This document shows positions 9,517 through 35,630 of a stretch of 64,000 nucleotides of DNA, one piece after another. The DNA comes from Octopus vulgaris (lineage: Eukaryota). Where the stretch lies: contig OX597822.1 of assembly GCA_951406725.2 (NCBI GenBank), forward strand, positions 107,136,001 to 107,200,000, in the 5' to 3' direction. Within the stretch, counting starts at the first letter, position 1. The number at the start of each line of letters is the position of its first letter. Both the position numbers and the translations under genes were made by a program. A model generated the notes under the pieces. That model made no database searches, was not told where the DNA came from, and saw nothing but the letters and a program-made list of their open reading frames with translations.

Positions 9517-9860
9517 TACGGAGATGTACTTGCATAGCAAGTGATTTGATCTGTGATCGTGTGCTGGAACGAAAACAATTGCAGCGTGGAAGGTGTTTGT
9601 AAGCCATTTAAGAAACACACAAAAGCCGTTCGATTCACTTCAACATTTAAGTTTAATTTGTCAAGATATTTTCCTGGCTATAAGACCGTGACCTGTTCAC
9701 TGACAAAAATCCGTGCCGCATCACGGATTTTTGTCAGTGAAGAGGTCGCGGATTTTAGCGACGAAAATATTTTGACAAATTAAACTTAAATGTTGAAGTG
9801 AATCGAACGGCTTTTGTGTGTTTCTTAAATGGCTTACAAACACCTTCCATGCTGCAGTTA
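9517..9860. mobile_element. Palindromic repeat family F with G3:C8-type hammerheads
   Basis: Inverted arms ~9570-9715 / 9722-9858 between (TA)n tracts; second copy at 35333-35630. Confidence 0.8.
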
Positions 9861-10759
9861 TATTCATATATATATATATACGCATATATATGTATATATG
9901 CATATATATCTTTATATGTATATATGTATATATATATATATATATATATATATATATATATATATATATATATGCATATTTATATATATATAATTAAGTT
10001 TCAGTTTCAATCAGGTACTTAAACTGAGACACCTTGTTAGGTCGATCAAATTTGCACGCTCAAACAATATCAGGTGAATATCAAACACTATGCAGAAGAG
10101 TTTGCACTTGATAGTTACCGGATATAAGTTTCCACTACTTAGTCTAGGCAGTCGTCATGATATTAATTAATTTATCACTATTGTCCAGAATACAGCTACA
10201 CCTCCCAAAAGATTTATTTTTGGACGATTGAAGAATACATTCCCCCCTATTGTCTTTGAAGTGTATGTAACAAGGTCACAACACTCAATTGTTCTTCACT
10301 CCACTATAACCTCTACTGACCTCTAAATTCTAGTATATTCGACACTACACAGATTATTTTCGAAATTCATTCTGCCAAAGATATAGCACCATAATCAATG
10401 TAAGTATTTGAGCTACGTTGGTGATGCGAATATGTTAAAGCAGTTGATTTGTCCTTTCTGTTTGAAGTCTATGATGTAATAATTTCATTAATCAATTAAA
10501 TGAGTGACTCGAAACGGGCGTAATAAACTGACACCTGTAATCTTTGTTACTCATTTATATAATTATAAATACAATTAATTAGAAAATATGTATAAGATAT
10601 AAAAGTTGTAACTATACTGAGAAGTAACGTTTATTCCCACTTCAACATGGATGTTCTGTACGAACTGACACTACTACCATTATAAACTCAGAAGGATGCC
10701 TCCTTCAGCTGGTTATTCCATGTAACCTGCAGCCGATATATATACATTCAAAATGTGAC

Positions 10760-10958
10760 CGCGTGTGTATCGTTGGCTATTTTTTTCTCCGTCCTCCCTT
10801 CCTTGGATCTTTCCCTTTCCAATGTTTCTGACGAAGAGTACCGCTCGAAACGTTAAATCCTCATTCTTTGTTTCCTTTCCTGAGCGTCCAATAACACTAT
10901 ACTTTTCCACGTCCTCGCGTTGTTGTGTTTTCTCTTTGTTTTCATGTTTGGATTAACT
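10760..10958 (+). mobile_element. Short PLE-terminus-like repeat, family E, with hammerhead at 10824-10858
   Basis: gttt-CUGACGA-a-gagu/acc/gcuc-GAAAC-GUU-aaat; 3' end abuts (TA)n; tail also at 35228-35275. Confidence 0.75.
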
Positions 10959-11183
10959 TTATATATATATATATATATATATATATATAAATAAAATTAT
11001 AAATATATATTAATAATTTCAATTTTAAATTTAAATAATTTAAATTTTTAAATTTTATATTCTATATATTTTGTATATTATATTAATTATTTTTATTTTT
11101 ATGTTTTGCTTTATGTCTTTCATTGTTTGATTTGCCTAATAGTGGTTTTATCTCTAATTTAATATTATCTCTAATTTATATAT

Positions 11184-11580
11184 AGGCGCAGGAGTGGCTG
11201 TGTAGTAAGTAGCTTGCTAACCAACCACATGGTTCCGGGTTCAGTCCCATTGCATGGCATCTTGGGCAAGTGTCTTCTGCTATAGCCCCCGGCCGACCAA
11301 TGCCTTGTGAGTGGATTTGGTAGACGGAAACTGAAAGAAGCCTGTCGTATATATGTATATATATGTATGGGTGTGTGTATATGTTTGTGTTCGTCCCCCT
11401 AGCATTGCTTGACAACCAATGCTGGTGTGTTTACGTCCCCGTCACTTAGCGGTTCGGCAAAAAAGAGACCGATAGAATAAGTACTGGGCTTACAAAGAAT
11501 AAGTCCCGGGGTCGATTTGCTCGACTAAACGCGGTGCTCCAGCATGGCCGCAGTCAAATGACTGAAACAAGTAAAAGAGT
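11184..11580 (+). mobile_element. SINE family C, full length
   Basis: Matches family C along its length. Confidence 0.9.
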
Positions 11581-11635
11581 ATATATATATATTGCAAGCA
11601 GGAGAGCGAACCCCTACCATCTTCTAGTGACAGGA

Positions 11636-11682
11636 CCGCCAGATCGTACGCTTTCGAGCTCTGTGCTCGTCCTCAGTGGTGG
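11636..11682 (-). ncRNA. Type I hammerhead ribozyme motif
   Basis: ccacca-CUGAGGA-c-gagc/acaga/gcuc-GAAA-g-cguacg-a-UC-uggcgg: stem I 5 of 6 bp, stem II 4 bp, palindromic CGUACG. Confidence 0.7.
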
Positions 11683-32000: not shown

Positions 32001-32139
32001 GTAGCATGCCTCGCTCACTGAGATGACCGCAACCCCTCTGCAAATAAAGAACATTTTAGAAAACGGCTTTGGCTGAAGACACCTTTCTGATAGTCTCTCT
32101 TTTAATAGTGATATATATCAGAAAACTTTGTACAAAGTA

Positions 32140-32386
32140 GGGTATTCGGCTCGTGATCGCTAGTTCGTGAGTTCAATTCCCGGCAAGACACACTATTTCC
32201 CGTTGCCCCATCCACTTAGCTGTCAAAAATGAGTACTACCTGTCTTTCAATGAGCCAGTATTGTCATACTCTGTGTCACGTTGTCTGTGGAGCGCTCAGC
32301 CACATGCGCGTTAATTCCAAGAGCAGGATGTTCCGGAGTTCTGTTGAGCGGATCATCTGGAACCCTCGTCGTCGTAACTAACGGTT
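32140..32386 (+). mobile_element. Hybrid SINE: CORE-like head plus family B type 1 tail (diverged)
   Basis: GAGTTCAATTCC..GGCAAGACAC..; tail GTGGAGCGCTCAGCCAC..GGAACCCTCGTCGTCGTAAC. Confidence 0.7.
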
Positions 32387-33159
32387 GCAATATATCGAAA
32401 TTGCGAGGATAATCCGGTACTTGACTGATGATAAAAGGCTTCGAATGACCCGTCTGTGTTTTTTGTATCGTCTATCTGGATGTTTTGTTGTCCCTTTTTG
32501 TATCACCTAGTTGTTGGGATGTTTTGCGTTCTTGTCGTATTTTGTATATTATATATATATATATATATATATATATATATATATATATATATATATATAT
32601 ATATATATATATATATATATACATAGCCCCACCCCACATGAATAACAACAGTGAGAGTGTTTTATAGTATCACAACAGTAATACTAATAATCTTTGGTCT
32701 CGACTCGTGGTTTCGTGTGAAAGTAGTTTTTCGCAATTATCAGACGGGCACTCTAAGGATCTATGTATGTTTGTATGTCTGAGTTTGTGCGTGGGTGAAT
32801 GTCTATGTGTGTGTGGGCATATATTATGTAAGAGCTCCCTCTTGAAACAGTGCTAAATCGACAACACAACTGTTCTGGAGTGTAATAATTCGATATTCAT
32901 GTTTGCTCATATTTTCGAAGTGTTATAATTATTTTGGCAAAATGACATATCTTCGGTCCATAAACTTTCGAAAACTTCTCGGTGTGCTTTTTATTTTTTT
33001 TTGAGGAGGTGGTGGTGATGTTAAAAGTGATTATAGTGGACCAGCTATTACTGCAGTTTGAAGTTAGCAGCAAAAGGTCATGGGAATGATGTACCAATTA
33101 ACCTAATCAATGTCACTGGAGTTACAATTGTCAAGTATTAAAACAATATAAATCTCGTG

Positions 33160-33560
33160 GCTTATTGAGCAGTTACAAACCCTTGTGCCGGCGTATTGAT
33201 TGCTTTAATTTGTATCTTACTATTAATTAAACTTCCTTTGTCGATGTAATTTTTCTGGAGTTCTCTATAAGAAACTAGCGTTATAGACTGGTTGTCACAG
33301 TTTTGCTTCATGCTCAGAAATCTAGTGTACTCTACTGACCTCATTTTCTTAATGCACTGGTTGCCTACATTCAGTATCAAACCAACGTTTGTTATCTGGT
33401 TTCTTACTAATGATTTTATGTCAATGAAGACGTTCCAAAGTTTACAAATAGTCTCTGTCATACCAATGCACCTATCCTCAATCTATTTTCGTACAAGAAT
33501 TGCTGACAAGTTCACGCATTTCGAACAGTGTGGTAAATTGATTATAAAGCTTTTAATTCT
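33160..33560 (-). pseudogene. Possible decayed PLE GIY-YIG remnant
   Basis: CIGMTETICKL resembles YIGMTETTFK; weak. Confidence 0.3.
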
Positions 33561-35332
33561 TGTGTATTTTCAATATATTCTATCTATTACTTACTAATTA
33601 AGTTACAAGTAAATTTTCTTACATTTCAGGGTATTTTTTAAGGGCATTTTTATCCATTCTAAAGTTGGAGTATATTTGGTTCATGTTGTATAGTACATGC
33701 AAGTTGTTTGTATGTTTTGATACTAAATAGTTGCTCTATCTGTTGTATTTGTGGGTATGATAATTTGTATACATACATACATACAAACATACATACATAC
33801 ATACATATATATATATATATACATCTACACACACATCTATCTCTCTCTCTCTCTCTCTATATATATATATATATATATATATATATATATATAAATGTAT
33901 ATATATACATCTATAAGTATATATGTATATGCTTACATCTATCTGTCTGTCTGTCTGTCTGTCTGTTTCCTTAATTAATTACTTGGGCTACCTCAGTCAA
34001 ATAATCTTGGAGAAAGTCAATGATTACGAAGTCATATATATATATATATATATATATATATACATATATACATACACACACACACACACGCACACGCACA
34101 TACACACACACACACACACAACACACACACACACACACACACACACACACACACACACACACACACACACATATATATATATATATATATATATATCTAC
34201 ATATACATATATTAATTTGATTAATTTGGGAAAACGAATTGCCAAATCAATCAGATACAACCCTTTAGCTTTAGATGCTCGTATCGTAGAGTGAGGTCTT
34301 GATTATCATATATCTATATCTTTAGCAAGAAATATATAAATATATAAAAGAAATCAATATTAAATCCGTTTTAGGAATTAATAGATATGCGGGTATACTA
34401 TTTCATATAATACAAAATATTAGATTAACAATATTTTGAAAAAAGAACCTGAAGATTTATTGGTAGTATTTTAAATATGATGATTGCATATATATATATT
34501 ATATATATATATATAATAATCTTCCAATACTGAAACACGAGCAGTTCGTTCATAATTGATAATTTTAACTTAAGTAGAAGATAATTAAAGAAGTATATTT
34601 TATACTGGTTATATCCTTTAAGATATTATTTCGTACAAATAGATACCACGAGTTTACCTGCAGATACACTCATTATGTTATTAAAAAAAATATTACCTGA
34701 AATAAATACCCGCATATCTATTAATCCTCCAAATTTAATTATATATATATATATGCTTGATTCAGTTCCATGCAATTTAAAGTTTCCAGGATAATAATCT
34801 TAAAAATAGTATTTCTCTTGCTCGTATTTTTCCATGTAATTCCCGTTTTTTCCAGGCTATGCTATTAATTAATAAGGTATCAAATGTGTCAATTAGCGGT
34901 GTCATTTCTTCATTACCTCATTGACGCCGGGGACATGTATTTGAAGTCCCCTCATAGAACTATATTCATAAAAAAAGTATAGAACTATATTATCACCCTC
35001 AAATTTAAGGAACAAACACTCATAACTTTTTTCTTTTAAAACTTCATTGTATGAGATTGATACCATGAAACTCTTCGAATTGAGCTCAATCGTTTAAGCT
35101 TCATTGGAATATAGTTTGTTTAAAAAAAAGGTAAATATACTTAAATCCGCTATTTCGCCTTACTTAATATATTTTTCATGACATTTTACCTCACAACTTT
35201 TTTTATTCAAATTTTTGTTTCGTTGGAAACGTCCTCGCGTTGTTGTTTTTTCTTGCACATATTCATGTTTGGATACATACATATATATATATATATATAT
35301 ATATATATATATATATATATATATATATATAT

Positions 35333-35630
35333 AGCATAGCAAATGATTTGATCTGAGAACGTGTGCTGGAACGAAAACAATTGCAGCGTGGAAGGTGTTT
35401 GTAAGCCATTTAAGAAACACACAAAAGCCGTTCGATTCATTTCAACATTTAAGTTTAAGTTGTCAAAATATTTTCGTCGCGACCTGTTCACGGATTTTTG
35501 TCAGTGAACAGGTCGCAGATTTTAGCGACGAAAATATTTTGACAAATTAAACTTAAATGTTGAAGCGAATCGAACGGGTTTTGTGTGTTTCTTAAATGGC
35601 TTACAAACACCTTCCACGCTGCAATTGTTA
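35333..35630. mobile_element. Family F palindrome, second copy; G3:C8 hammerhead at 35497-35546
   Basis: uuuguca-GUGAACA-g-gucgc/agauuuua/gcgac-GAAA-auau-UU-ugacaaa. Confidence 0.8.

What the first reader, a model, noticed from the sequence alone, without database searches (positions are those of the whole stretch)
9517..35630. Family F palindromes appear to propagate as double-ribozyme fold-back units
Two loci 26 kb apart (9517-9860, 35333-35630) share the same asymmetric layout: long left arm, short right arm ending near GCTGCA, centre containing CACGGATTTTTGTCA, (TA)n on both sides. The second centre looks like a TCAC-microhomology deletion of the first. Similar fold-backs occur at 9209, 27592 and 38452, and in the hammerhead-bearing ones the inversion centre lies just 5' of the ribozyme. 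Either the palindrome itself is the mobile unit or the insertion mechanism reproducibly generates it. Transcripts would form long dsRNA hairpins.
Basis: partly seen in the sequence, partly recalled or inferred. Interest (0 to 1): 0.72.

Follow-up and report, generated by a model that had tools for sequence, protein, structure and literature searches.

The report
Mirror-image stubs of Penelope retrotransposon insertions
Both palindromes are real, but each is a short head-to-head double copy of the ribozyme-motif-bearing end of an abundant protein-coding Penelope-like jumping gene, likely made afresh at each insertion rather than spreading as a hairpin unit; this layout is already known for the group.

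Summary
The fold-backs are real. Family F has 6,499 exact 23-mer matches in G000. It is the pLTR/ORF-start end of a Penelope-like element (PLE): kilobase copies join it to a 1,025-aa RT + GIY-YIG frame in the same layout. In a position-ordered sample, 43 of 89 insertions are short fold-backs. 38 of 43 pair one long and one short fixed 3' end (0 long-long, 0 short-short), and 22 of 28 assessable ones have a target-site duplication around the whole unit. Centres vary but pile up at one boundary carrying a non-templated G (20 of 25; control 10 of 56), likely the RNA cap. Copies sharing locus 1's centre have mixed polarity (14:12), mixed haplotypes and no shared lineage, so the palindrome is not the propagating unit. 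Likely mechanism: both target nicks prime reverse transcription, one at each start site; the cDNAs run to the cap and anneal. Only one of the four window arms keeps an intact hammerhead motif (G3-C8 core). The layout is published for PLEs, and this scan reported it before on other DNA of this genome.

The parts
9516..9722 (-). Locus 1 long arm: PLE terminus from the likely transcription start (-206) to the long 3' end (-1); includes the ~60-nt tail (9516-9573)
   Evidence: 93% to a natural ORF-linked copy, L092
9722..9860 (+). Locus 1 short arm: PLE terminus from -199 to the short 3' end (about -60; last bases decayed)
   Evidence: (L203)
9711..9726 (.). Locus 1 inversion centre; a recurrent junction type (36 copies), inferred one-base anneal of a cap-derived C
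9730..9779 (+). Hammerhead-like motif, short arm; stems intact, core broken (G3.G8)
   Evidence: sequence; fold z -3.18; not passed by scan
9657..9707 (-). Decayed hammerhead-like motif, long arm (variant loop II, U16.1 lost, stem II broken)
35334..35491 (-). Locus 2 long arm: starts at -184 inside the hammerhead, 10-nt deletion in stem II, tail ends at -17
   Evidence: (L217)
35489..35629 (+). Locus 2 short arm, -199 to the short 3' end (-59); joined to the long arm through a shared CAC
35497..35546 (+). Intact minimal type I hammerhead motif with G3-C8 core, 7-bp stem I, 5-bp stem II, palindromic helix III segment
   Evidence: scan; shuffles gave 1 comparable site in 20 windows; z -2.79
9470..9515 (.). 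(TA)n target tract left of locus 1 (tracts also at about 9867-9975, 35279-35333, 35630-35683)
   Evidence: 52 of 89 sampled insertions touch (TA)n
9209..9441 (.). Older fold-back of another family: short arm left, long tailed arm right, decayed hammerhead cores
   Evidence: motif read by eye
27588..27790 (.). Fold-back of another family (5,740 exact 31-mer matches), C3-G8 hammerhead motif, same long+short rule
   Evidence: motif read by eye (my scan missed it)
38446..38641 (.). Fold-back of another family, extension on the left arm only, no hammerhead seen

Best explanation
The two palindromes are short head-to-head double copies of the pLTR/ORF-start end of an endonuclease-bearing Penelope-like retrotransposon, each likely built afresh during one insertion by paired target-primed reverse transcription. 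Shown: the family joins an RT + GIY-YIG frame; there are two fixed 3' ends 60 nt apart (+30 and +89 of the ORF); fold-backs pair one of each; one target-site duplication spans the unit; and 5' ends pile up at -210 to -204 with an extra G. Inferred steps: (1) an internal pLTR promoter makes a capped RNA starting at A(-207) or A(-205); (2) the element's protein, probably a dimer, nicks both strands of an AT-rich target about 10-13 nt apart; (3) each nick primes reverse transcription, one at each internal start site; (4) each cDNA runs towards the cap, at most about 150 or 210 nt when primed in the 5' pLTR, or kilobases when primed in the 3' pLTR; (5) the two cDNA 3' ends anneal at 1-3 nt of microhomology, often the cap-derived C, and are filled in. 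The hammerhead is a passenger of the pLTR and does not set the unit's ends.
For: ORF link: L092 and L095 join the terminus to GIY-YIG (Pfam PF01541, 24.9 bits vs cutoff 22.6). L177 has a 1.8-kb inverted tailed arm and a 4.1-kb arm with a 1,025-aa open frame ending at the short end in (TA)n. In tandem L179 the tail reads in frame into the ORF N-terminus.

RT identity: motifs (motif names recalled) and ESM Atlas neighbours at 0.94-0.96 with HTH_animal/RVT_1.

Ends: 38 of 43 fold-backs are long+short, 0 long-long, 0 short-short. In a second set of 102, 86 are long+short, 1 long-long and 1 short-short.

Target-site duplication of 8 nt or more in 22 of 28, control 5.6%.

5' ends: 53 of 132 arms at -210..-204, only 11 beyond, none at -150..-144 around the predicted cleavage site (-149). 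Non-templated G in 20 of 25 arms ending at -211..-207 (6 of 7 monomers), control 10 of 56.

Same-centre copies: polarity 14:12; no shared rare variants in 153 locus pairs.

Literature: an inverted 5'-truncated copy plus a one-sided tail is typical of PLEs (PMC8557442, PMC3846280). A PLE protein cuts and extends both strands, starts at two internal sites that bound the tail, is predicted to be a dimer, and does not need hammerhead cleavage (PMC11167929).
Against: - No biochemistry or 5'-end RNA data; the cap and promoter are inferred, and the boundary also resembles a 3' splice site.
- In fold-backs the extra G can come from the partner arm.
- Pfam gave no RT hit on the 1,025-aa protein, and the PDB sequence search gave none.
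- 5 of 43 and 14 of 102 fold-backs have an arm ending at neither fixed site. Several of these still have a target-site duplication, which snap-back copying or re-copying of a palindromic RNA could also give.
- L046 and L051, 200 kb apart with different flanks, share a junction variant and the base after the short end.
- Arms of one locus share rare variants far above chance (33 of 186; shuffled mean 1.4), so post-insertion gene conversion may have blurred arm origins.
- The position-ordered sample comes from one contig (first 53 Mb of C1) and needs an exact 23-mer.
Confidence: 0.85

Rival explanations
1. The palindrome itself is the mobile unit: a master fold-back is transcribed and re-inserted whole as a non-autonomous element.
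For: Centres recur (36 and 11 exact copies; three types make up about half of 50 listed). Locus 2-type copies are 9:1 in one polarity. L046/L051 look like a possible pair. Some arms end at non-standard sites.
Against: Polarity is 14:12 for the commonest centre. Both loop II haplotypes occur under each centre, and 0 of 153, 0 of 55 and 0 of 15 locus pairs share rare variants in both arms. 34 of 38 junction combinations are distinct. Long arms are generally the more truncated (reach -202 in 12 of 38 vs 22 of 38), which predicts the 9:1 skew. Opposite-strand hammerheads cannot excise a unit as tandem retrozymes do.
Confidence: 0.06
2. Self-priming (snap-back): one nucleic-acid strand folds back at the centre and copies itself, as proposed for an antisense template in PMC3846280.
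For: Locus 1's centre is a 5-bp stem with a 6-nt loop. Arms agree at loop II in 68 of 82 fold-backs (41% discordance expected at random, 17% seen) and share rare variants. It could explain the fold-backs with one non-standard end.
Against: It does not explain why the second arm stops at the other fixed site in 38 of 43. A short first arm cannot template a tail. 14 of 82 fold-backs differ between arms at a three-change marker. The extra G and both fixed ends are oriented as for a sense, capped template. Many centres are asymmetric deletions with no hairpin.
Confidence: 0.07
3. Assembly artefact (chimeric fold-back reads).
For: No long read spanning either locus was available; no contig laid spans the whole stretch.
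Against: Arms differ by 4-8%, end at two fixed biological sites and carry target-site duplications. Contigs of four public runs cover the centre bin, and fold-back junction sequences appear among their loose ends and joints, at family level (the best holder may be the assembly's own sample).
Confidence: 0.01
4. MITE or Foldback-type DNA transposon with long terminal inverted repeats.
For: Short non-coding palindrome in TA, thousands of copies.
Against: Ends are unequal, 46 of 89 copies have no partner arm within 400 nt, duplications are about 10-13 nt and variable, and the family is physically the end of an RT + GIY-YIG element.
Confidence: 0.01

Closest known systems
Insertion units of C-terminal-EN Penelope-like elements (Neptune/Nematis type): inverted 5'-truncated pLTR, direct copy, one-sided tail (PMC8557442 Fig. 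2 legend; Adineta vaga Pen2a, PMC3846280)
   Same: Head-to-head inverted copy, tail on one end only, target-site duplication round the whole unit, pLTR overlapping the ORF start, (TA)n bias, RT + linker Zn-finger + GIY-YIG.
   Different: Tail is about 60 nt, not 30-40. Most copies are 150-210-nt stubs. Strict long+short pairing and a cap-type G at the centre were not stated in the passages I read; PMC3846280 favours antisense self-priming instead.
Poseidon element of Anolis carolinensis (PAc), in vitro (PMC11167929)
   Same: Two internal RT start sites early in the ORF bounding the tail; both strands cut and extended; hammerhead in the pLTR not needed for insertion.
   Different: Family F has a CX3CxxC linker (absent from Penelope/Poseidon per PMC8557442) and a natural G3-C8 core, which in PAc is an engineered partial-rescue mutant.
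Minimal PLE hammerheads and opposite-strand dual min-HHRs in Schistosoma mansoni (PMC4209133)
   Same: Type I minimal motif, extra base at the 5' end of stem II, G10.1-C11.1, palindromic helix III; dual motifs 100-700 bp apart on opposite strands were already noted there.
   Different: Core variant is G3-C8 (221 of 242 arms), not C3-G8 or U3-A8; activity untested.
L1 twin priming (PMC2912911)
   Same: Two cDNAs primed from the two target nicks and annealed at short microhomology; a reverse-transcribed 5' cap seen as an extra G.
   Different: In L1 the second start is a chance internal site. Here both starts are fixed and the arms overlap almost fully.
Non-LTR retrozymes (bioRxiv 10.64898/2026.07.22.740005)
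   Same: Short non-coding PLE-derived repeats with type I hammerheads.
   Different: Retrozymes are direct tandem arrays needing two same-strand motifs; these are inverted, with one motif per strand.

Membership tests
EN+ Penelope-like element (C-terminal EN) | Single ORF with RT followed by GIY-YIG endonuclease | tested here: met
   1,025-aa frame in L177; PF01541 25.4 bits above cutoff. RT by motifs and Atlas neighbours; no Pfam RT hit.
EN+ Penelope-like element (C-terminal EN) | CCHH motif with two cysteines between GIY and YIG | tested here: met
   Two cysteines between the VY.I and YIG motifs and downstream histidines in the L177 translation; definition from PMC8557442.
EN+ Penelope-like element (C-terminal EN) | pLTRs from partial tandems, overlapping the ORF start | tested here: met
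   L179: terminus at 4727-4926 reads into the ORF and recurs at 8988-9182.
EN+ Penelope-like element (C-terminal EN) | Inverted 5'-truncated copy and tail at one end, flanked by a target-site duplication | tested here: met
   38 of 43 long+short; duplication in 22 of 28.
EN+ Penelope-like element (C-terminal EN) | Hammerhead motif in the pLTR | tested here: met
   Motif with G3-C8 core in 221 of 242 arms; stems pair in 89-99% of 168 arms, with almost no compensatory changes.
Neptune or Nematis clade | CX2-5CxxC linker between RT and EN | tested here: met
   CX3CxxC at residue 896.
Neptune or Nematis clade | Placement in RT phylogeny with reference PLEs | not tested
   No reference set was on hand; Neptune versus Nematis is left open.
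Active hammerhead ribozyme | Self-cleavage | not testable with these tools
   No 5' ends at the predicted cut site among 132 arms; engineered G3-C8 gives partial activity in PAc.
Non-LTR retrozyme | Direct tandem units, each with a same-strand hammerhead | tested here: not met
   The window's units are inverted; short direct tandems were rare among 89 insertions.
Self-propagating palindromic element | Copies share centre, polarity and arm-private variants | tested here: not met
   one possible pair.
MITE / Foldback DNA transposon | Matched terminal inverted repeats, fixed short duplication, transposase partner | tested here: not met
   Unequal ends, unpaired arms common, RT partner.

The most novel reading that the evidence does not exclude
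These thousands of stubs are a genomic record of an obligately asymmetric PLE integration complex: one reverse transcriptase starts at each of two fixed sites, both copy sense RNA to its cap, and in a sizeable minority the two arms come from two different RNA molecules. That would replace the antisense self-priming model for PLE head-to-head repeats. The family would also carry a natural, working G3-C8 hammerhead.
Probability: 0.4. Interest if true: 0.5.

Novelty: new member of a known kind. Interest (0 to 1): 0.27.

Why it matters
As an element it is ordinary: a known PLE footprint. Its value is as a test set. How PLEs make inverted pLTRs and one-sided tails is still open in the papers I read, and the long+short rule, the cap-type G and the arm haplotypes give sharp predictions for an in vitro system that already exists for another PLE. 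Such stubs could be misfiled as MITEs or SINEs (inference). If transcribed inside host RNAs they would form about 140-bp duplexes that could be substrates for RNA editing or silencing (untested).

Tried and rejected
- Rfam scan of the window: 0 matches.
- Pfam and PDB sequence searches did not detect the RT domain.
- tblastn of the PLE protein against the window: no hit, so no coding part of this family lies in the window.
- Sequencing runs: no RNA holder listed. The runs laid are contigs only, some guessed to be RNA, so they say nothing on expression, start site, strand or editing.
- Hammerhead cleavage as the source of the centre: rejected, since no 5' ends fall near -149.
- Splice acceptor as the 5' boundary: considered because the upstream sequence resembles a branch point plus acceptor. 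Not favoured: arms begin at several positions from -211 to -205 with an extra G and no common upstream exon.
- Two-RNA origin of arms: tested, left open. 14 of 82 are discordant at loop II, but 6 of those 14 share a rare variant elsewhere, so gene conversion confounds it.
- My hammerhead scan missed the motif at 27592, so its negatives are weak.
- Covariation support for the stems is negligible because the family is young.
- Natural G3-C8 in print: one search (hammerhead, G3-C8, natural) gave one listing, which I did not read. Supplements of the PLE ribozyme papers were not read, and a 2017 paper on PLE hammerhead variants (recalled) was not seen, so absence from print is not established.
- A search for PLE twin priming with cap listed no paper making that case by title or abstract start.
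- Look-up of earlier findings by sequence returned nothing.
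Full report
OBSERVATION. Both loci are real head-to-head inverted repeats of one family between (TA)n tracts. Positions below are counted back from the long 3' end (-1) of a natural copy, L092. Locus 1 has a long arm from -206 to -1 (9722 to 9516, minus) and a short arm from -199 to about -60. Locus 2 has a long arm from -184 to -17 and a short arm from -199 to -59. The four arms are 92-96% identical pairwise. Locus 1 would fold at -237.6 kcal/mol, z -31.5. 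The window lies on a 2.8-Gb animal genome, G000:C9. Earlier notes call it an octopus, which fits my recollection but was not tested here.

RIBOZYMES. Family F carries a minimal type I hammerhead motif: 7-bp stem I, an extra base, 5-bp stem II and a palindromic helix III segment. The usual C3-G8 core pair is swapped to G3-C8 in 221 of 242 arms. Stems pair in 89-99% of 168 arms, but compensatory changes are almost absent. Of the four window arms only the locus 2 short arm is intact. The two motifs of a fold-back lie on opposite strands, so one transcript holds one sense motif, predicted to be buried in the long hairpin. Activity is untested.

WHAT FAMILY F IS. A 23-mer of the arm has 6,499 exact matches, control 0. 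Following the upstream sequence (386 matches) led to copies joined to a GIY-YIG frame. L177 shows the window's layout at kilobase scale: a 1.8-kb inverted arm with the tail, then a 4.1-kb arm with a 1,025-aa open frame ending at the short end in (TA)n. The protein has a Pfam GIY-YIG hit above cutoff, PLE-type RT motifs and a CX3CxxC linker (motif names partly recalled). Its Atlas neighbours carry HTH_animal and RVT_1. Pfam and PDB gave no RT hit. In tandem L179 the terminus runs in frame into the ORF: the likely ATG is at -92, so the short and long ends fall about 30 and 90 nt into the ORF. Family F is therefore the pLTR/ORF-start end of a Neptune/Nematis-type PLE.

I fetched all of the first 100 listed 23-mer matches on C1, which collapse to 89 insertions. 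43 are fold-backs with the partner within 400 nt; 46 have no such partner (33 long, 13 short; a few are arms of kilobase fold-backs). Of the 43, 38 pair a long with a short end, none pairs like with like, and 5 have one non-standard end. A second, overlapping set of 102 fold-backs, chosen for having both cores, gave 86 long+short, 1 long-long, 1 short-short and 14 with a non-standard end. Of 28 fold-backs not flanked by (TA)n on both sides, 22 have a duplication of 8 nt or more around the whole unit; shuffled flanks give 5.6%. The measure tolerates a few terminal element bases. So each fold-back is one insertion event.

CENTRES. 38 long+short fold-backs give 34 distinct pairs of 5' ends. Yet 53 of 132 arms stop at -210 to -204, only 11 go further, and none stops at -150 to -144 around the predicted cleavage site. 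Where the last templated base is -211 to -207, the next base is a G absent from the template in 20 of 25 arms (12 of 13 at -207; 6 of 7 unpaired arms). For arms truncated further downstream the figure is 10 of 56 (the 30 loci chosen by junction were left out). An extra G is the recognised trace of a reverse-transcribed cap in L1 and SVA (PMC2912911, passages).

RECURRENT JUNCTIONS. Locus 1's centre occurs 36 times. In 30 examined, the long arm is on one side in 14, on the other in 12 and on neither in 4. Both loop II haplotypes occur, and 0 of 153 locus pairs (18 loci with the identical centre) share a rare variant in both arms. Locus 2's centre occurs 11 times: 9 long-left, 1 long-right, 1 neither, with both haplotypes and 0 of 55 pairs sharing. 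The 9:1 skew fits the general greater truncation of long arms. Descent of locus 2's type from locus 1's by deletion is possible as a string but unnecessary, and mildly disfavoured (p 0.06). One pair, L046/L051, shares a junction variant with different flanks and could be a copied palindrome.

ONE RNA OR TWO. Arms differ at a three-change loop II marker in 14 of 82 scorable fold-backs, locus 1 being of this kind by eye; random pairing would give 41%. Pure snap-back copying predicts none. But arms share rare variants far above chance (33 of 186; shuffled mean 1.4), including 6 of the 14 discordant pairs. Two-RNA origin followed by arm-to-arm conversion, and one-RNA origin followed by ectopic conversion near the centre, both fit. 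I leave this open.

OTHER FOLD-BACKS. 9209, 27592 and 38452 belong to three other multi-copy families. Their fold-backs mostly show one extended and one short arm; all 11 distinct fold-backs seen for the 27592 family do, and L264 in the 9209 family is an exception. I did not link these families to ORFs.

MECHANISM AND LITERATURE. PLE insertions commonly have an adjacent inverted 5'-truncated copy and a tail at one end (PMC8557442, passages; PMC3846280, passages). Opposite-strand dual minimal hammerheads were noted in Schistosoma (PMC4209133, parts 1-2 of 4). A lizard PLE protein cuts and extends both strands, starts at two internal sites bounding the tail, is predicted to be a dimer and does not need hammerhead cleavage; engineered C3G/G8C is partly active (PMC11167929, parts 1-2 of 4). 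Paired priming from these two sites, run-off at the cap and microhomology annealing account for the fixed ends, the long+short rule, the single duplication, the clustered centres and the recurrent junctions. PMC3846280 proposed antisense self-priming instead; the data here fit it less well but do not exclude snap-back for the minority with non-standard ends. Retrozymes are direct tandems (bioRxiv 10.64898/2026.07.22.740005, part 1 of 5) and do not match. PMC13282606 (passages) reports recently active PLE families in an octopus without describing palindromes in those passages. Supplements of these papers were not read and may hold natural G3-C8 cores or this family.

VERDICT. Real feature, known kind. 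The mechanism regenerates the fold-back (0.85); the palindrome as mobile unit is unlikely (0.06). I wrote my reading before the look-up of earlier notes, which showed the scan had reached the same conclusion several times on other DNA of this genome, including the G3-C8 core and capped-start reading. Interest 0.27.

Noticed in passing
L180, L181 (G000:C15:42990500-42999500; C1:59391500-59401400): A sister PLE family (about 54% identical in the RT thumb) with 1,312-aa open frames and a long Asn-rich insert before the RT, like the N-rich inserts described in rotifer Penelopes; copies 97-99% identical with the same inverted layout, so likely recently active.
   Followed up: partly
L177, L179, upstream of the family F terminus: The 1.7-kb stretch between the ORF stop and the terminus contains internal (TACA)n-like tracts that travel with the element, and a branch-point/acceptor-like sequence just before the inferred start site.
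   Followed up: partly
L046 and L051 (G000:C1:5.78 Mb and 5.99 Mb): Two fold-backs 200 kb apart share a junction variant and the base after the short end but have different flanks; the only candidate seen for a palindrome copied as a unit.
   Followed up: partly
L091 (G000:C2:171240500-171248000): 3.44-kb direct tandem duplication at 96.5% identity containing an older (79%) family F terminus and no long open frame.
   Followed up: no
window 53834-57945: Broken LINE: N-terminal frame, endonuclease-like frame (55228-55890) and RT-like frames (55868-57945), Tx1/L1-like by recalled motifs.
   Followed up: no
window 3033-3590, minus: 186-aa frame with a YVxD RT-like motif resembling another Penelope-type element, between short inverted repeats at 2740-2800 and 4306-4366.
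   Followed up: no
window 31940-31994, minus: Canonical-looking C3-G8 type I hammerhead motif with palindromic helix III (CATATG), not in a detected fold-back.
   Followed up: no
window 25002-25085, minus: Second, unpaired copy of the 9209 family (79% identity).
   Followed up: no
window 22242-23266 and 47705-49280: Inverted pairs of a SINE-like repeat 0.4-1.1 kb apart, 86% identical; likely independent insertions.
   Followed up: no
window 13419-13931: 171-aa frame resembling a mariner-type transposase fragment (recalled motifs).
   Followed up: no
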